From IMG/VR virus record IMGVR_UViG_3300029068_000003: 37,522 nt of DNA, one strand, 5' to 3'. This DNA is from a virus. Lineage: Duplodnaviria > Heunggongvirae > Uroviricota > Caudoviricetes. Position numbers and translations under genes: made by a program. The notes below the pieces were generated by a model. The model did not search any database and was not told where the DNA came from. It saw nothing but the letters and a program-made list of their open reading frames with translations. This document shows positions 21,146-29,422 of this stretch, in pieces. Position 1 is the stretch's first letter. Every line of letters begins with the position of its first letter.

Positions 21146-21667
21146 ATGATGAACAAATTAGCACGCTTATTATTAACAGCAAGCTCAATTGCACCTGTTT
21201 GCGCAACTCTATTTTTTATTGGATATGTAAAAGATACGGTTTGGCTGATGCAATATAGCTTATGCGTTGGCATAGCAAGTTGGTTATTAGCAATAGGCCT
21301 GATTCAATATGCTGAGAAACAACTTGAACCTCTGACAAAAAATATTAGTTCAGTTTCTCCCGCTAACAAAGAAGTAACTAATTATTTCTTAAGCTATTTA
21401 TTCCCTCTCCTAGGAACAGACTCTATTGCTGAAAATAAAGCATATGCGTTATTCTTTTATTTGTCATTGTTATTTTACATCAGCTTTTCCGAGAACTATA
21501 ACTTTAACCCAGTATTGTCACTTATCGGTTATAAATTTTACGAAGCTGAAGATGACACCGGCGTAGGTTTTGTATTGATTTCTAAATCAGTCATTACTGA
21601 TATTAAAGATATCAAATTTACAGTTATTCAATTAACAGACTACACATTTCTACATGTTAAAGGATAA
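21146..21667 (+). CDS. Small integral membrane protein with about 4 TM helices (KwaA-like architecture, unverified)
   Basis: 173 aa AT-rich ORF with hydrophobic segments (LLLTASSIAPVCATLFFIGYV; WLMQYSLCVGIASWLLAIGLIQYA; YALFFYLSLLFYISF); opposite strand to flanking Q and lysis genes. Confidence 0.55.
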   Translation: MMNKLARLLLTASSIAPVCATLFFIGYVKDTVWLMQYSLCVGIASWLLAIGLIQYAEKQLEPLTKNISSVSPANKEVTNYFLSYLFPLLGTDSIAENKAYALFFYLSLLFYISFSENYNFNPVLSLIGYKFYEAEDDTGVGFVLISKSVITDIKDIKFTVIQLTDYTFLHVKG

Positions 21668-21672
21668 TAACC

Positions 21673-22557
21673 ATGGCACTTTTTGCAGTAATAGATAATA
21701 CAATTGCAACGAGAATTGTTAGAGTCGAACTTGATGCAACAGCAAGTACTTCTGTTACGGCCATTTTCCAACAACAGCGTCAATATTTTGAAAGTCATCA
21801 TAACAATATGATACCATTCTATGCCGGTTATACACCAAAACATAGTGAGTGTTTTGAAATACAAAACTTTACTGATTCTGCACGCCTGATTGACGCAGTC
21901 AATAGGCCTACCGCCGTGCCTGTCTGGGATCCCAGCCAAATTGATATTGGTTATATTAAAGCATTATTTGTTGGTGTTGACGCGCCAGCAAACCCCAATA
22001 TTATTGCGCTACAAACCTTCAACAAAAAACAAATCTTAGATACCTCAAAATCATTCTTTGGAAAGCTTTTTGCAAGCAAAACTACCTTTAGTAAAGCTAA
22101 TAGCATCGGTTTTAATGTTGATGATAAACTAGTTGCAATAATTATCAATGATACAATACGATTTAAGAGTTTCTTTAATCTAAGAAGCATTTTTGACATG
22201 TCGTCCTATTTTTCTGCTGCTACTGACCAAGAACTTAATGCATTTAGTCAACTTAGTGTATTTTCTACTCCCCAAGGTTTTGATCTAAAATCCGTTGCAG
22301 ATACAGTGATAAGAAATAAAGTAACACTAATAAATCAGACTGGGATGCTAACACCCCAAAATATGTCAAAGTTTAAATCCGAAGCTGCTAAAGTCAATTT
22401 CCCCTTACAAACCATAATAGTTGGCGGTGTTGAGAAAATTGTCATGCCTTCATCAAAAAAAGAAATAAAAGCCCTTCTTGACTTTCTTGAGGAAGACATT
22501 TGGATTTCAGGGATAAGTGGAAGACGCTTTAAATCGAATTCAAAGCGCCCAATATAA
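21673..22557 (+). CDS. Soluble partner protein of the membrane protein (KwaB-like size, unverified)
   Basis: 294 aa AT-rich ORF starting 5 nt after the upstream stop, with an SD overlapping the upstream gene end (operon); no recognisable catalytic motif. Confidence 0.55.
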   Translation: MALFAVIDNTIATRIVRVELDATASTSVTAIFQQQRQYFESHHNNMIPFYAGYTPKHSECFEIQNFTDSARLIDAVNRPTAVPVWDPSQIDIGYIKALFVGVDAPANPNIIALQTFNKKQILDTSKSFFGKLFASKTTFSKANSIGFNVDDKLVAIIINDTIRFKSFFNLRSIFDMSSYFSAATDQELNAFSQLSVFSTPQGFDLKSVADTVIRNKVTLINQTGMLTPQNMSKFKSEAAKVNFPLQTIIVGGVEKIVMPSSKKEIKALLDFLEEDIWISGISGRRFKSNSKRPI

Positions 22558-25159: not shown

Positions 25160-25482
25160 ACTTTCAGGCCTCTCTCATGTAACCAGTGGGCTGCACGCAG
25201 CCTGGCGTTTTCCTCACCGGCAAGCAGTGCGCGGATAATCCCGACCGCCTCGCTGTCGTCGTCCTTCACCGCGGTATGAAGCGTTATCCCCCGGGCCACG
25301 CCACGCTTTATCGTGATGACGCCTTTTTTCTCCAGTGCACGAAGATGCTCTACCGCTGCATTCACTGAACGGTATCCCAGCATGGTTGCCACCTCCTGAT
25401 TGGTTGGCGGAAAGCCACGCTCTTTCTGGTAAGAAATCAGCATATCCAGCACCTGCTGCTGGCATTGAGTTAACGTCGTCAT
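25156..25482 (-). CDS. LexA N-terminal DNA-binding-domain-like protein (wHTH), function unknown
   Basis: 108 aa; LTQCQQQVLDMLISYQKERGFPPTNQEVATMLGYRSVNAAVEHLRALEKKGVI resembles the LexA DNA-binding domain; ATGA overlap with the upstream gene. Confidence 0.45.
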   Translation of the reverse strand: MTTLTQCQQQVLDMLISYQKERGFPPTNQEVATMLGYRSVNAAVEHLRALEKKGVITIKRGVARGITLHTAVKDDDSEAVGIIRALLAGEENARLRAAHWLHERGLKV

Positions 25483-26165
25483 GCCGCCATCTCCCTGACC
25501 AGTTTTTCCGCCTGCTGGCGAACCTGCACCAGAAAGGCTTCACCACATGCCTCAAGTTCATCGCGCCCGATGTAGCTGATTGCCGGTCCCTTCCAGGTCT
25601 TGTCGAAAACAGCAATAGCACCAGCGAAGAAAGCGCCTGTCGGCACCTGCTTCTCATCCTTCGGGATAAACCAGGCAGGCAGTTCAAAACCAATACGCCC
25701 GCGAATAAAAGCAATATGGTCCGCATCTTCCGGCCACCACACTTCGCTGGTGGCAGCTTTGATCAGGAAAACATAGCGCCCGCCCTTATCACGCATGGCA
25801 CTGGCATGTTTCATGATGTAACGCATGCCGGTGATGTATTGCCCCTCATGCTGACTGGCGCGGCTGTATGGGGGATTACCAAAGGCAGCACCTTTAAGCT
25901 CCGCAAGACGTTCTGACCAGTCATGCGCCAGCGCGTTATCTTCCGCCGTGTAATACGCGGCACATTTGGCGTTATCACCGTCAGTAAACAGATCCAGAAC
26001 AAACGGGCCAAACAGGGTGTTAATTCCCCAGAAAATGTTGTCCGGCGTGCGCCACTGATCGCCCACTTCCTTCAGTTCATGGGCTGGTTTGTTCCGCAGT
26101 TCCACCAGCGCCTGGCAATATTTATTACTCATTAAGCCCCCACGTAATTCCCTGACAGATACCAC
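25479..26165 (-). CDS. Phage N6-adenine DNA methyltransferase (Dam-like)
   Basis: 228 aa with catalytic NPPY motif (AAFGNPPYSRA); ORF-track start is GTG; alternative in-frame ATG at 26132. Confidence 0.7.
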   Translation of the reverse strand: MVSVRELRGGLMSNKYCQALVELRNKPAHELKEVGDQWRTPDNIFWGINTLFGPFVLDLFTDGDNAKCAAYYTAEDNALAHDWSERLAELKGAAFGNPPYSRASQHEGQYITGMRYIMKHASAMRDKGGRYVFLIKAATSEVWWPEDADHIAFIRGRIGFELPAWFIPKDEKQVPTGAFFAGAIAVFDKTWKGPAISYIGRDELEACGEAFLVQVRQQAEKLVREMAA

Positions 26166-26622: not shown

Positions 26623-27564
26623 TCACCCCCTGAATCCTGCCGGGATCTGGCTGTAGTCCACGTTGTCGTAACTGGATTTGAAGTACGGGTCTTCGCGTTT
26701 TTCGGTGTACGTGCTGACGGACGGTGATAAGCGCAGGGAAAGCTCATCCCATTTTTCCCGCAACTTCGACGGGCTGAGCACGTTACGGCACCAGAACGGA
26801 TCGCGGCTGACGCGGCTGTACATCTCGCAGATTTGTTTGTGAGTACGACCATCCTGCACACACATCAGGCGAATTTCGTTTGCCCAGGCTGTCCAGTTCG
26901 GTTCTTTGGGACGAACCACCTCGCCGTCACATTCGGCGGCTTGCTCGTACAGGGCGATGATTTTTTTCCAGAGCCACTGTGCGCAGGTCAAATCATCCTG
27001 CGTTCCCCACTGGCGCTTTTTAGGGCTGAATACAACCGCATCAGGATGGCGAGTTAAAAAATCCTGTTCATCCGTCTGCGTGTCCGGTTGCGAAGCGTCC
27101 GGACGAGAAGGTTTTTTATCTGACGGATCATGTTTTGATTTTACTGACGGATCCCCGCCAGATTCTGACGGATGAAAACCCGCTTTTTTGCCAGATTTCG
27201 ACGCATCAAATTTTGACGGGTCAGATTTTGATGCGTCAGATTTTGACGGGTCAGAATCTGACAGTTGAGAAAATGCCGCTGCCTGAAGCTTCGCAACGTT
27301 AAGCTGATAAACATTCGACGCATTGCGGTTACCCTGGCGACGCGCCTTACGCGTTAACCAGCCTTCTGCTTCCAGCCGTGCGATAGCCGTCCTGACGGTA
27401 CTCATCCCCGCGCCAATCTGACGGGCAATGGTTTCAATTGATGGCCAGCACACACCTTCGTCATTACTGAAATCAGCCAGGCGGGCCATAATTGCCACGC
27501 TGGATAATTTCATGCCTGATGCAGCGCAACCATCCCATACATAGCCGGTTAATTTAGTGCTCAT
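26623..27564 (-). CDS. Replication initiator protein (HTH N-terminus, low-complexity linker encoded by iterons)
   Basis: 313 aa; N-terminal wHTH-like region; Ser/Asp/Lys-rich repeat segment (SDSDPSKSDASKSDPSKFDASKSG) encoded by DNA direct repeats; position equivalent to lambda O. Confidence 0.6.
   Translation of the reverse strand: MSTKLTGYVWDGCAASGMKLSSVAIMARLADFSNDEGVCWPSIETIARQIGAGMSTVRTAIARLEAEGWLTRKARRQGNRNASNVYQLNVAKLQAAAFSQLSDSDPSKSDASKSDPSKFDASKSGKKAGFHPSESGGDPSVKSKHDPSDKKPSRPDASQPDTQTDEQDFLTRHPDAVVFSPKKRQWGTQDDLTCAQWLWKKIIALYEQAAECDGEVVRPKEPNWTAWANEIRLMCVQDGRTHKQICEMYSRVSRDPFWCRNVLSPSKLREKWDELSLRLSPSVSTYTEKREDPYFKSSYDNVDYSQIPAGFRG
27112..27264. repeat. Iteron array (candidate replication origin) inside the initiator gene
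   Basis: About 8 direct repeats of a TTTTGACGGGTCAGA-like unit, including three contiguous 15-bp copies at 27211-27255 (ttttgacgggtcaga / ttttgatgcgtcaga / ttttgacgggtcaga). Confidence 0.55.
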
Positions 27565-27573
27565 GACCGACCT

Positions 27574-27912
27574 CTATTTCCCTGAATTTACGACGAAACT
27601 GTTCGAGCGGGCTGAAGCACTCATGCTCATAGCCTTCGCGGAGGTAGATAACCCGTTGTGTTTCCGGCTCCCAACGAATGACTCTGACGGGCACTCCGTA
27701 GTGATCTTTGAACCAGCGGTTAACTTGTCGCAAAGGACTGTCTCCTTCTGCCGGTTGAAATCACCCACAGCCCACTCAGCAAAGCTGTGGGTTACAATTT
27801 CCCTGTCACCTGGTACATTAACTGCATAGCAATACTCCACCTTCGCTTTTCCACCCGGTACAGGAAGCGCAATCAGTTGCGAGCGACGGTAGTGTGTTGT
27901 TAAACTGTTCAT
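27574..27912 (-). CDS. Hypothetical protein (reality uncertain)
   Basis: 112 aa ORF whose ATG overlaps the stop of the upstream gene (ATGA); contains a perfect 9-bp inverted repeat (27763-27771 / 27784-27792), so may instead be partly regulatory DNA. Confidence 0.3.
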
Positions 27913-28517
27913 GCGTTAGTTTCTCCACAGTCACGACACGCCACGGCGCCCGGAGCTGCACACTCGCGGGCGTCATTACTTTCTGAAATGCAAAAGATTT
28001 TGTAGACCAGTGCTGCATGCTCCTGCAGCTTCGAAATTGAGAGATACAGCTCGTCGTTAATTGCTGTCTTCTCATGCGGTTCCACCACACCGTCTTCGAT
28101 TGCCGAACGAATCTGTCTGGAATAACTGCCAATCTGTTCAATGACTTCCAGCAGGCGCTGGTTAATATCGGCGTTGTCCACATCCTCGACGTCAGGAAGA
28201 GACACAAAGACGCCATTTGCAGACTGCGCCACAGCGTCAGCAATGAAGTGAGTTCCACCAGCACGTTGCAAAATCATTGCCCATCCCAGCGGGAAAATCT
28301 GATCGCCATCGGCACGAAGGCGGTTAAATAATGCGTTTTCTGTTACATCCAGCCAGTCAGCTGCTTCAGCGTAACCACCCGGCAACGCTGCGATAGTTTT
28401 TCTGACAGCTTTCACGTACCACTCAGGCTGTTTTTCTACTTTCCAGTGATGCTTACCCACGGTTAGCCTCATCGTTCTGTGGTTTCTGTTAATCGATTTA
28501 TCCATTAGATTTTTCAT
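27909..28517 (-). CDS. CII-like regulatory protein (CP76 family-like), start uncertain
   Basis: Segment ...[36 protein letters not shown]... resembles the CP76 CII-like family as recalled; ORF-track start is GTG at 28574 (overlaps cro by 77 nt); in-frame ATGs at 28517 and 28505. Confidence 0.4.
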
Positions 28518-28698
28518 AAAGCTCAGGTTTAAATGGCAACCGTCCGCAAGTTCTATATGCAGCTTCTGCTGCACGTCCTTTTGGAATTAACTGGCCCGGA
28601 CGGTTTCGCCACTGATAAACGGCTTCAGTTGTTATGCCGAAAAAAGCAGCAACTTTCTCAATACTGCCGAAGTAGCTTTCGATATCGTCAGTTGTCAT
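28498..28698 (-). CDS. Cro-like repressor
   Basis: 66 aa HTH protein (...VAAFFGITTEAVYQWRN...), divergent from the cI-like gene, GGAGGG Shine-Dalgarno. Confidence 0.65.
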   Translation of the reverse strand: MTTDDIESYFGSIEKVAAFFGITTEAVYQWRNRPGQLIPKGRAAEAAYRTCGRLPFKPELYEKSNG

Positions 28699-28795
28699 AC
28701 GCCCTCCAAACTAAGTTTTATTAGATGCTAATTACAAATCTATCTTTGGTCAATAAAAACTAAGATTACTTAGCAATTCAAGAAATGGTGCTCCT
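28699..28795. promoter_or_regulatory. Immunity-region operator/promoter (OR, divergent cro and cI promoters)
   Basis: 97-bp AT-rich gap between divergent cro and cI; palindrome AAACTAAGTTT (28708-28718) and CTAAG-ATTA-CTTAG (28760-28773). Confidence 0.55.
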
Positions 28796-29422
28796 ATGGA
28801 AACGGTTGGTCAGCGTATAAAAGCTCTGAGAAGAGTTACCGGAACGTCCCAGAAAGAATTGGGTAAATTTTGTGGAGTAAGCGACGTTGCTGTGGGGTAC
28901 TGGGAGAAAGACATCAATACCCCTGGTGGGGAGGCACTTTCGAAATTAGCGAAGTTCTTCAATACGTCAATAGATTACATTCTTTATGGTGCTGAGTTTG
29001 AAGGCAAACTCGTCACAAACATGCGCAGAGTTCCTGTAATATCGTGGGTTCAGGCTGGGCAGTTTACTGAGTGCAGGGCAGCAGAAGTGTTTAGTGAAGT
29101 GGACAAGTGGGTAGATACATCATTAAAGATTGGTGATAACTCATTTGCATTAGAGGTTAAAGGTGACTCCATGACTAACCCTAATGGCCTCCCAACAATA
29201 CCAGAAGGCGCAACAGTGATTGTAGATCCAGATGCAGAACCTCGTCATGGAAAAATAGTCATCGCTCGACTTGATGGAACAAACGAAGCTACAGTAAAAA
29301 AATTAGTCATCGATGGCCCTCAAAAGTTTTTAGTGCCATTAAATCCTCGGTATCCCAACATCCCTATCAATGGTAATTGCCTTATCATTGGTGTAGTCAA
29401 AGGAGTTCAATACGAACTCTAA
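28796..29422 (+). CDS. CI-type repressor (XRE HTH + S24 LexA-like autopeptidase)
   Basis: 208 aa; N-terminal HTH (QKELGKFCGVSDVAVGYWEKD); C-terminal Ser/Lys dyad context (VKGDSM ... ATVKKLV). Confidence 0.8.
   Translation: METVGQRIKALRRVTGTSQKELGKFCGVSDVAVGYWEKDINTPGGEALSKLAKFFNTSIDYILYGAEFEGKLVTNMRRVPVISWVQAGQFTECRAAEVFSEVDKWVDTSLKIGDNSFALEVKGDSMTNPNGLPTIPEGATVIVDPDAEPRHGKIVIARLDGTNEATVKKLVIDGPQKFLVPLNPRYPNIPINGNCLIIGVVKGVQYEL

What the first reader, a model, noticed from the sequence alone, without database searches (positions are those of the whole stretch)
27112..27264. Replication origin iterons embedded in the initiator gene
Tandem copies of a 15-bp TTTTGACGGGTCAGA-like unit (at least 8 recognisable, 3 contiguous) lie inside the replication initiator coding sequence and encode its Ser/Asp/Lys-rich linker. 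This mirrors lambda ori lying inside gene O. No obvious P-like or DnaC-like helicase loader follows the initiator.
Basis: partly seen in the sequence, partly recalled or inferred. Interest (0 to 1): 0.45.

Follow-up and report, generated by a model that had tools for sequence, protein, structure and literature searches.

The report
Phage replication origin inside initiator gene
The repeats are real and are conserved as DNA rather than as protein, so they are most likely the prophage's replication origin sitting inside its own initiator gene, as in phage lambda; this is a new example of a known arrangement, with the twist that no helicase loader is encoded.

Summary
The window is an SfII/SfIV/SfV-like E. 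coli prophage integrated next to icd. The 313-aa gene at 26623-27564 (-) has a winged-helix N-domain (Pfam HTH_36), an unstructured linker, a C-domain homologous to lambda O (7e-26), and a tail, SQIPAGFRG, that is 8/9 identical to the C-terminus of host DnaT.

The linker DNA carries five contiguous 15-bp units, a sixth site 33 bp away and two half-sites. Each full site is an imperfect 13-bp palindrome, GTCAGA-W-TCTGAC.

Across 73 homologues from about 70 Enterobacterales species, synonymous codons are nearly frozen in codons 99-161 (major-codon fraction 0.90, against 0.53 in the N-domain; p=7e-19). Two homologues keep the motif GTTTTCACCCGTCAGAATCTG in a different reading frame. Selection therefore acts on the DNA.

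Recombination breakpoints keep the N-domain and repeats together. Initiators with other N-domains carry their own repeats at the same place, one set with a 23-bp period. The least stable 40-mer of the gene adjoins the repeats, as in lambda.

No P, DnaC or DnaB homologue exists anywhere in the window.

Verdict: this is very probably a lambda-style intragenic origin, a new member of a known kind, and it is untested experimentally. The DnaT-like tail is a testable lead for loader-independent helicase recruitment.

The parts
26623..27564 (-). Replication initiator gene (313 aa, 'O-like'; PGAP name 'helix-turn-helix domain-containing protein')
   Evidence: ORF. PHROG 391 'replication initiation O-like' at 1.2e-135 over the full length. 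Pfam HTH_36 at 4.3e-11. It is 98-99.7% identical to the replication genes of the isolated phages SfII, SfIV and vB_EcoM-689R6.
27271..27564 (-). N-terminal winged-helix domain (codons 1-98), the presumed origin-recognition domain
   Evidence: HTH_36, GntR, MarR and PaaX winged-helix hits cover aa 23-82. Its amino acids are conserved across 73 homologues, but its synonymous sites vary freely (major-codon fraction 0.53).
27082..27270 (.). DNA-level constrained segment (codons 99-161), the proposed origin
   Evidence: Major-codon fraction is 0.90 here against 0.53 in the N-domain, with a sharp step at codon 98/99 and decay after 161; Mann-Whitney p=7e-19. In all 2599 sequence pairs the synonymous difference is lower here (median 0.16 against 0.60). 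Consensus.
27250..27262 (.). Site 1, a perfect 13-bp palindrome GTCAGAATCTGAC
   Evidence: It matches the 12-mer on both strands. Sequence.
27235..27247 (.). Site 2 (GTCAGATTTTGAC on the + strand; TCAAAATCTGAC on the sense strand)
   Evidence: Exact 12-mer match. 15 bp from site 1.
27220..27232 (.). Site 3
   Evidence: Exact 12-mer match. 15-bp spacing.
27205..27217 (.). Site 4
   Evidence: Two mismatches; it matches on both strands. 15-bp spacing.
27190..27202 (.). Site 5
   Evidence: Two mismatches. 15-bp spacing.
27170..27189 (.). A6/T4-tract spacer between sites 5 and 6 (sense strand AAAAAAGCGGGTTTTCATCC)
   Evidence: Sequence. The 'aaa..ggTTTT' pattern is conserved in the 73-sequence consensus. 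A role in DNA bending is inferred.
27157..27169 (.). Site 6 (sense strand GTCAGAATCTGGC), which forms an inverted repeat with site 1
   Evidence: CAGAATCTGG is invariant in every homologue examined, including the most distant ones.
27136..27180 (.). The most invariant box: GTTTTCAyCCGTCAGAATCTGGnGGGGATCCGTCAGTAAAwTCA
   Evidence: More than 90% conserved per position in 73 sequences. In L160 and phiP27 its 5' part is read in a different frame, giving VFTRQNLT instead of GFHPSESG, because a 1-nt deletion and a 1-nt insertion flank it.
27106..27145 (.). AT-richer, least stable 40-mer of the gene (candidate unwinding region). It holds two GTCAG half-sites, and one of the two conserved GATC sites (27126); the other (27150) lies just outside it
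   Evidence: Nearest-neighbour dG is -47.0 kcal/mol, against a window mean of -55.2. This is the least stable 40-mer in the gene and the 93rd percentile of the window. In lambda O the least stable 40-mer lies in the same relative position, immediately after iteron 4.
26734..27021 (-). C-terminal domain homologous to the lambda O C-terminal domain
   Evidence: BLASTP against lambda O: 7e-26, 31% identity over 216 aa, strongest over aa 182-277. tblastn gives 2.7e-23.
26626..26652 (-). C-terminal tail SQIPAGFRG, resembling the DnaT C-terminus
   Evidence: E. coli K-12 DnaT ends in SQIPPGFRG. The match is 8/9 identical and both peptides sit at the extreme C-terminus. The last 76 nt of the gene are 94-97% identical in phages with otherwise unrelated O-like genes.
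28725..28753 (-). Candidate early rightward (pR-like) promoter, whose transcript would pass through the origin
   Evidence: TTGACC-17-TAGCAT lies in the cI-cro intergenic region. This is a consensus match only.

Best explanation
The 190-bp segment 27082-27270 is the cis-acting replication origin of this SfII/SfIV-like prophage, and it lies inside the linker-coding part of the phage's own initiator gene.

Shown: the segment is an array of six imperfect 13-bp palindromes (GTCAGA-W-TCTGAC). Five are spaced 15 bp apart and the sixth lies beyond an A/T-tract. A highly invariant box and the gene's least stable, AT-richer stretch follow. The whole segment is under strong selection at the nucleotide level, independent of the reading frame. 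It travels in evolution with the winged-helix N-domain.

Inferred: dimers of the N-domain bind the palindromes and form a lambda 'O-some'-like nucleoprotein complex. This complex distorts the DNA and opens the adjacent AT-richer region, helped by transcription from the early rightward promoter. The lambda-O-like C-domain and the DnaT-like tail then recruit the host helicase (DnaB, probably as DnaB-DnaC), because the phage encodes no P, DnaC or DnaB homologue.
For: (1) The repeats are real and tightly clustered.

(2) Selection acts on the DNA.
- In six homologues, invariant degenerate amino acids use the same codon in 5 of 62 N-domain columns and in 18 of 24 linker columns (Fisher p=1.9e-9).
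- In 73 distinct homologues from about 70 species, the major-codon fraction is 0.53 in the N-domain and 0.90 in the linker. Examples are Val141 GTA 72/72, Ser107 TCA 70/70 and Asp138 GAT 73/73.
- The linker is less diverged than the N-domain in all 2599 sequence pairs.

(3) L160 and phiP27 L17 conserve GTTTTCACCCGTCAGAATCTG in a shifted reading frame.

(4) Within each unit the 12-nt core is fixed while the 3-nt spacer codon varies freely. Copy number varies from 2 to 8 between species and by one or two units among near-identical E. coli relatives. This is how binding-site arrays behave.

(5) The architecture is modular.
- phiNP, Flotzy and YeP1 share only the N-domain plus repeats.
- PhiR42_1 shares only the C-domain.
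- The breakpoints lie at about 27082-27100, just past the repeats.

(6) Initiators with other N-domain types carry different repeats at the same position. PhiR42_1 has a 23-bp period, which is not a multiple of 3. SfV and ST64B have their own motifs. L167 and L169, which have altered recognition-helix residues, lack the motif and carry a 33-bp repeat instead.

(7) The layout matches lambda. Lambda's iterons lie at O codons 117-145 and are followed by its least stable 40-mer. Here the sites lie at codons 102-136 and are followed by the gene's least stable 40-mer. The lambda layout is described in PMC7466680.

(8) The C-domain is homologous to lambda O.

(9) The gene sits in the early operon after cro and a CII-like gene. 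It is 98.7% identical in SfIV, an isolated viable phage (PMC3851460).
Against: - There is no experimental evidence of origin activity or of N-domain binding for this family. Nothing was found in the searchable literature.
- The AT-rich region is modest: 62% AT and the 93rd percentile of the window, against a much stronger tract in lambda.
- A 15-bp centre-to-centre spacing is shorter than in typical iteron arrays.
- No DnaA box was found, and only one weak IHF-like match.
- The mechanism of helicase recruitment is unknown. No function for the DnaT tail was found in the papers I read (PMC13377028, PMC4132743).
- The segment also has a strong predicted single-strand fold (z=-6.4), so an RNA-level role is not formally excluded.
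Confidence: 0.78

Rival explanations
1. The sites are bound by a protein but do not form an origin. They could be an internal operator or roadblock through which the initiator, or another phage DNA-binding protein such as the PerC/wHTH YfdN or the CII-like YmfL, regulates the early operon. The true origin would then lie elsewhere.
For: Dyad-symmetric 13-mers look like operators. The AT-rich stretch is only modest and no DnaA box is present. Several DNA-binding proteins are encoded nearby.
Against: The sites co-segregate specifically with the initiator N-domain across recombinants. Each N-domain type has its own repeats at the same place. The position and order match lambda ori. No other iteron-like cluster exists in the window. 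The Klebsiella relatives keep the repeats but lack the downstream PerC gene.
Confidence: 0.1
2. The constraint acts on the mRNA or on a transcript structure, for example a translational pause, an RNase site or an antisense target, rather than on a DNA site.
For: The 189-nt sense strand folds at -64 kcal/mol, z=-6.4 against shuffles. Frame-independent conservation would also fit an RNA element.
Against: RNAalifold gives a positive (unfavourable) covariation term, +1.07. Pairs are almost all invariant, and only 3 of 39 show any double change. The fold arises from the palindromic repeats themselves. Copy number varies from 2 to 8, which would keep breaking a defined structure. No promoter-like site for an antisense RNA was found.
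Confidence: 0.05
3. The apparent conservation reflects recent horizontal spread. The linker would be a mosaic-junction sequence homogenised by recombination among lambdoid phages, not a selected site.
For: Recombination breakpoints do flank the segment. The last 76 nt of the gene are an obvious shared junction.
Against: Within the segment, the spacer codons, residues 124-129 and the copy number are highly diverged, while interleaved core positions are invariant across about 70 species. Recent transfer would homogenise all positions alike.
Confidence: 0.03
4. It is an ordinary low-complexity protein repeat ((S/F)D(P/A)SK) produced by slippage, with no function at the nucleic-acid level.
For: The repeats are in frame with a 15-bp period and encode a disordered-looking Ser/Asp/Lys-rich linker.
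Against: Synonymous sites are frozen. The motif is conserved in another frame. The relative PhiR42_1 has repeats with a 23-bp period. No alternative-frame ORF is conserved.
Confidence: 0.01

Closest known systems
Phage lambda ori within gene O (O-some origin)
   Same: - The origin lies inside the initiator gene, between an N-terminal DNA-binding domain and a C-terminal domain.
- It is an array of dyad-symmetric repeats followed by the least stable, AT-richer stretch (PMC7466680).
- It sits in the early rightward operon after cro and a cII-like gene.
- The C-terminal domain is homologous (7e-26).
   Different: - The N-domain is Pfam HTH_36, not Phage_rep_O/TIGR01610.
- The sites are 13-bp palindromes spaced 15 bp apart, not 18-19-bp iterons spaced 20-24 bp apart.
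- There are six sites plus two half-sites, rather than four.
- The AT tract is weaker.
- There is no P gene.
- The C-terminal tail is DnaT-like rather than the lambda tail ...NTDWIYGVDL.
Stx-phage (933W-type) lambda-like origins with six iterons
   Same: The number of iterons varies between related phages, and the extra copies are still needed for replication (PMC7466680). Here copy number varies from 2 to 8.
   Different: Those are true lambda O/P replicons. This one belongs to another N-domain family and has no loader.
phiP27 L17 and Citrobacter sp. NCU1 (L160) replication modules
   Same: The N-domain family is the same (62-63% identity), as are the core motif TCAGAATCTGA and the GTTTTCACCCGTCAGAATCTG box.
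   Different: Those initiators have an SfV-type C-domain and no GFRG tail. They are followed by DnaC-like and DnaB-like genes. Part of the box is read in another frame.
E. coli DnaT (primosomal protein I)
   Same: The extreme C-terminal peptide is shared: SQIPPGFRG in DnaT against SQIPAGFRG here. Database annotators call several homologues 'primosomal protein (I)'.
   Different: The rest of the protein shows no significant similarity (hhalign probability 10%). DnaT acts at abandoned forks with PriA and PriB, not at a sequence-specific origin.
DopC/DopE (domesticated lambda O/P of Cellvibrionales; Brezellec 2017, PMC5509034)
   Same: It has an O-like HTH_36 N-domain combined with a DnaT C-terminal motif.
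   Different: DopC has no iteron-like sequences and is not an origin (PMC5509034). It is paired with a P-like DopE. Here the repeats are present and no P is encoded.

Membership tests
Lambda-type intragenic phage origin (iterons plus AT-rich region inside the initiator gene) | A cluster of at least 4 direct repeats inside the initiator gene, between its N- and C-domains | tested here: met
   Six full sites lie at codons 102-136 of 313. Lambda's lie at codons 117-145 of 299.
Lambda-type intragenic phage origin (iterons plus AT-rich region inside the initiator gene) | Each repeat has internal dyad symmetry (a dimer-binding site) | tested here: met
   The consensus is GTCAGA-W-TCTGAC. Site 1 is a perfect palindrome and the others match 4-5 of 6 pairs.
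Lambda-type intragenic phage origin (iterons plus AT-rich region inside the initiator gene) | An easily melted AT-rich region directly downstream of the repeats | tested here: met
   The least stable 40-mer of the gene is at 27106-27145, next to site 6. Lambda has the same relative position. The tract is only 62% AT and the 93rd percentile of the window, so the feature is met weakly.
Lambda-type intragenic phage origin (iterons plus AT-rich region inside the initiator gene) | The sequence is selected as DNA, independently of the protein it encodes | tested here: met
   Codon invariance is 0.90 against 0.53, p=7e-19. The motif is conserved in a shifted frame.
Lambda-type intragenic phage origin (iterons plus AT-rich region inside the initiator gene) | The initiator's N-domain binds the repeats specifically | not testable with these tools
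   The evidence is indirect only: co-inheritance across recombinants, and repeats specific to each N-domain type.
Lambda-type intragenic phage origin (iterons plus AT-rich region inside the initiator gene) | The fragment supports initiator-dependent replication | not testable with these tools
   This needs a plasmid replication assay or marker-frequency analysis.
Lambda O protein family | N-terminal Phage_rep_O domain (PF04492 / TIGR01610) | tested here: not met
   No hit at E<=0.01-0.1, whereas lambda O scores 5.7e-36 and 5.4e-39 in the same scans. HHpred in PMC5509034 does relate the lambda O N-terminus to HTH_36 at profile level.
Lambda O protein family | Lambda-O-type C-terminal domain | tested here: met
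   BLASTP 7e-26.
Lambda O protein family | A cognate P (helicase loader) gene immediately downstream | tested here: not met
   The downstream gene is PerC-like YfdN. tblastn of lambda P against the window finds nothing.
HTH_36 (PF13730) replication initiators | Pfam HTH_36 match above the gathering score | tested here: met
   42.9 bits against a cut-off of 25; E=4.3e-11; aa 23-70.
Plasmid-type iteron replicon (Rep plus iterons plus DnaA box) | A DnaA box (TTWTNCACA) in or next to the iteron array | tested here: not met
   The only match is a 1-mismatch hit at 26964, inside the C-domain coding region and far from the array.
DnaT (primosomal protein I) | DnaT C-terminal ssDNA-binding three-helix domain | tested here: not met
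   hhalign of the C-domain profile against DnaT gives probability 10% over 15 columns. A PDB profile search finds no DnaT hit.
DnaT (primosomal protein I) | Extreme C-terminal peptide ...SQIPPGFRG | tested here: met
   8 of 9 residues are identical, and the peptide is terminal in both proteins.

The most novel reading that the evidence does not exclude
The SQIPAGFRG tail is a portable peptide shared with DnaT. Through it, a lambda-O-like initiator that has no P protein would recruit the host helicase machinery (DnaB-DnaC, or PriA-primosome components) directly to its intragenic origin. The extreme tail, not the C-domain, would then decide which loading route a lambdoid initiator uses.

In the 73 usable loci:
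- 45 initiators with a GFR-type tail have no loader gene downstream.
- All 8 with a P-like or DnaC-like gene downstream lack a GFR tail (two end in GFKG).
- The same tail types occur on two different C-domain folds.

If true, this would also assign a function to the uncharacterised DnaT C-terminal tail.
Probability: 0.35. Interest if true: 0.65.

Novelty: new member of a known kind. Interest (0 to 1): 0.45.

Why it matters
This replication module is very common. The 2.7-kb region matches 2813 of 5426 complete E. coli genomes, 1481 of them over at least 80% of its length. It is also the module of the Shigella serotype-converting phages SfII and SfIV. I found no published description of its origin.

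Defining the origin and its 13-bp sites would:
- give a handle for measuring prophage induction and replication;
- allow compatible lambda-dv-like vectors to be built;
- allow ori-based interference with these phages.

The codon-invariance signature, a sharp step in synonymous conservation, is a general way to find intragenic origins by computation.

The P-less initiator with a DnaT-like tail offers a simple genetic system for a question that PMC13377028 describes as still open: how DnaT-type adaptors recruit DnaB-DnaC.

Tried and rejected
- **Overlapping gene.** All five alternative frames of the constrained segment contain stop codons in most of the 73 homologues. The best frame is open in only 29 of 73. 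Rejected.
- **Internal promoter or antisense RNA.** No promoter-like site lies in 26900-27400.
- **DnaA boxes and IHF sites.** There is no DnaA box near the array and only one 1-mismatch IHF-like site, at 27128-27140. No host-factor site is claimed.
- **RNA structure.** The fold is strong but has no covariation support. It is attributed to the palindromic sites.
- **Homology of the C-domain to the DnaT C-terminal domain.** hhalign probability is 10% and PDB searches find nothing. Only the 9-residue tail is shared.
- **AlphaFold2 without an alignment.** Mean pLDDT was 43.9, too poor for fold search. Only the secondary-structure pattern was noted: a winged helix-turn-helix, no structure over aa 102-163, and a helical C-domain.
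- **First viral-contig scan.** It returned only relatives with an identical N-domain. These were useful only for copy-number polymorphism. Diversity came from genome contigs.
- **Literature.** Searches for a described origin in SfII, SfIV, SfV or other HTH_36 phage initiators found none. Papers on DnaT do not assign a role to residues 154-179 beyond a modest effect on cooperative ssDNA binding.
- **CCGTCAG over-representation.** The heptamer occurs 22 times against 4 expected in the window. I read this, without testing it, as codon bias: most of the other copies are on the + strand of the left half of the window, where the annotated genes run on the - strand, so they would read CTG-ACG-G in the sense orientation. 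Those copies are not origin-related.
Full report
**Context**

The window is an E. coli prophage of the SfII/SfIV/SfV type: an HK97-fold capsid, a P27-family terminase and a contractile tail. It is integrated next to icd and is 100% identical over the tested 2.7 kb to E. coli NZ_CP116241. The region matches 2813 of 5426 complete E. coli genomes.

The early operon on the - strand reads:
- cro (28498-28698);
- a CII-like ymfL gene;
- DUF4222;
- the gene of interest (26623-27564, 313 aa);
- PerC-like yfdN, then dam, a LexA-DBD-like gene, rusA, a KilA-N gene, a DUF968 gene, and Q.

The cI repressor is divergent, at 28796-29422.

The gene matches PHROG 391, 'replication initiation O-like' (1e-135), and Pfam HTH_36 (4e-11). 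It is 98-99.7% identical to the replication genes of the isolated phages SfII, SfIV and vB_EcoM-689R6. SfIV is a viable, inducible phage whose genome paper describes a replication module but no origin (PMC3851460).

Tandem Repeats Finder reports 27192-27255 with period 15 x 4.3 copies. On the sense strand the unit is TCT GAC NCN TCA AAA, which encodes (S/F)D(P/A)SK.

The 12-nt core TCAAAATCTGAC (up to 2 mismatches) occurs six times between 27157 and 27261 and only twice elsewhere in 37.5 kb. Shuffles give 3.6 hits for the whole window. Five units are contiguous, a sixth site lies 33 bp further on beyond an A6/T4 tract, and two CCGTCAG half-sites follow.

Adding one flanking base makes each site an imperfect 13-bp palindrome, GTCAGA-W-TCTGAC. 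Site 1 (27250-27262) is a perfect palindrome.

**The decisive test: DNA or protein?**

I collected the gene from six phages and from 80 genomes of about 70 Enterobacterales species. N-domain identity in this set runs from 100% down to 52%.

At codon columns where the amino acid is conserved and degenerate:
- N-domain (codons 1-98): synonymous codons vary freely, with a mean major-codon fraction of 0.53 over 86 columns.
- Linker (codons 99-161): codons are almost frozen, at 0.90 over 51 columns.
- After codon 161: the value returns to 0.66.
- The step at codon 98/99 is sharp (Mann-Whitney p=7e-19).

Examples are Val141 GTA in 72/72 sequences, Ser107 TCA in 70/70 and Asp138 GAT in 73/73. In every one of 2599 sequence pairs the linker shows less synonymous difference than the N-domain (medians 0.16 and 0.60). 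In the six-phage set, all six share the codon in 5 of 62 N-domain columns and in 18 of 24 linker columns (p=1.9e-9).

Two homologues, Citrobacter sp. NCU1 (L160) and phiP27 L17, give the most direct evidence. They keep GTTTTCACCCGTCAGAATCTG but read it in another frame (VFTRQNLT instead of GFHPSESG), because a 1-nt deletion and a 1-nt insertion flank it. The conserved object is therefore the nucleotide sequence.

**The pattern is that of a binding-site array**

Within each 15-bp unit the 12-nt core is fixed, and the 3-nt spacer codon (CCG, ACA, GCA, GGG and others) varies freely.

Copy number varies from 2 to 8 among species. Among IMG/VR relatives with an identical N-domain it varies by one or two units, giving proteins of 303, 308, 313, 318 or 323 aa.

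The most invariant part is the box GTTTTCAyCCGTCAGAATCTGGnGGGGATCCGTCAGTAAAwTCA (27136-27180). It contains site 6 and one of the two conserved GATC sites; the phage encodes its own Dam methylase.

**The repeats travel with the N-domain**

- phiNP, Flotzy and YeP1 share only the N-domain plus linker with the window. They carry a different C-domain, Phg_2220_C.
- PhiR42_1 shares only the C-domain.
- Both breakpoints fall at about 27082-27100, just past the repeats.

Initiators with other N-domain types carry their own repeats at the same position:
- PhiR42_1 has five or six copies with a 23-bp period, which cannot be a protein repeat.
- SfV and ST64B have GTGAATCTCCTGCAC-type repeats.
- L167 and L169 have changes in the recognition helix (STVRT to STVYG). 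They lack the TCAAAATCTGAC motif and carry a 33-bp repeat instead.

This is the classical lambdoid pattern, in which origin specificity resides in the N-terminal part of the initiator (established knowledge of lambda O; layout in PMC7466680).

**Anatomy compared with lambda**

In lambda the four iterons occupy O codons 117-145, and the least stable 40-mer of the gene begins 4 bp after iteron 4. Here the sites occupy codons 102-136, and the least stable 40-mer of the gene (27106-27145; dG -47.0 against a window mean of -55.2) lies just beyond site 6. The tract is weaker than lambda's (62% AT).

No DnaA box lies near the array.

**Rivals**

- Overlapping ORF: excluded, because all alternative frames contain stops in most homologues.
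- Promoter inside the array: no promoter-like site.
- RNA element: the segment has a strong predicted fold (z=-6.4), but the alignment fold has an unfavourable covariation term and almost no compensatory changes. The pairing comes from the palindromic sites, and variable copy number argues against a defined RNA structure.
- Recombinational homogenisation: this cannot explain invariant positions interleaved with highly variable ones.

**The initiator and the missing loader**

The protein is a natural hybrid.
- Its N-domain is HTH_36, not the lambda Phage_rep_O domain.
- Residues about 182-277 are homologous to the lambda O C-terminal domain (BLASTP 7e-26).

No lambda P, DnaC or DnaB homologue exists anywhere in the window or in the PGAP annotation of the whole prophage.

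The protein ends in SQIPAGFRG. E. coli DnaT ends in SQIPPGFRG, so 8 of 9 residues match, and both peptides are at the extreme C-terminus. The rest of DnaT is not detectably similar.

Among the 73 usable genomic loci:
- 45 have a GFR-type tail and no loader gene within 2.5 kb downstream.
- 20 have a different C-terminal extension (...W..IW...) and also no loader.
- All 8 with a P-like or DnaC-like gene downstream lack the GFR tail. Two of these end in GFKG.
- L161 combines the lambda-like C-domain with a lambda-like tail and a P-like gene.

The same tails occur on both C-domain types. These counts are not phylogenetically independent.

I infer, with modest confidence, that the tail is a helicase-recruitment peptide. 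How DnaT itself recruits DnaB-DnaC is described as unknown (PMC13377028). A DnaT C-terminal motif on an O-like protein was noted before for DopC, which has no iterons (PMC5509034).

**Verdict**

This is very probably a lambda-style origin embedded in the initiator gene of a widespread but uncharacterised replication module. It is a new member of a known kind. Replication activity and protein binding remain to be shown.

Noticed in passing
window 26626-26652 (tail) and 26623-26698: The initiator ends in SQIPAGFRG, 8/9 identical to the C-terminus of E. coli DnaT (SQIPPGFRG). The last 76 nt of the gene are 94-97% identical in phages whose O-like genes are otherwise unrelated at the DNA level (SfV, mEp460, Stx2a/2c phages, Ayreon, 2H10). 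Across 73 loci the GFR tail and a downstream loader gene are mutually exclusive.
   Followed up: partly
window 21146-21667 (+) and 21673-22557 (+): A complete Kiwa anti-phage system, KwaA (1.9e-83) plus KwaB (2.3e-150), sits as a moron between the Q antiterminator and the holin gene of the prophage.
   Followed up: partly
window 27554-27733 (-) and 27574-27912 (-): Two ORFs in different frames overlap by 160 nt just upstream of the initiator, and both match protein families. The 59-aa ORF is DUF4222 (PGAP annotation). The 112-aa ORF matches phrog_1170 over its full length (1.7e-70). Which one is expressed, or whether both are, is unclear.
   Followed up: no
L007 2916-3047 (phage PhiR42_1), L008/L009 3400-3560 (SfV, ST64B): Initiators with other N-domain types carry their own repeat arrays in the equivalent linker: a 23-bp period in PhiR42_1 and GTGAATCTCCTGCAC-type repeats in SfV and ST64B. 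These are probably further undescribed intragenic origins.
   Followed up: partly
L099, L100, L109, L126, L128, L130, L142, L146-L158 and YeP1 (L006): A third class of initiators has neither the GFRG tail nor a recognisable loader gene. They carry a roughly 45-aa C-terminal extension ending ...RWNAIWKE...AA or ...KAWAGIWQQAAEQA.... Its partner is unknown.
   Followed up: no
window 27126-27129 and 27150-27153: Two GATC sites, each within GATCC(G/A)TCAG, are conserved across homologues inside the AT-richer part of the proposed origin. The phage encodes its own Dam methylase two genes downstream (25479-26165). Methylation control of initiation is possible.
   Followed up: no
window, whole length: CCGTCAG occurs 22 times against 4.2 expected from dinucleotide shuffles. 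Most copies are on the + strand of the left half of the window, where the annotated genes run on the - strand, so they would read CTG-ACG-G in the sense orientation. This looks like codon bias rather than a dispersed signal, but I did not test it.
   Followed up: partly
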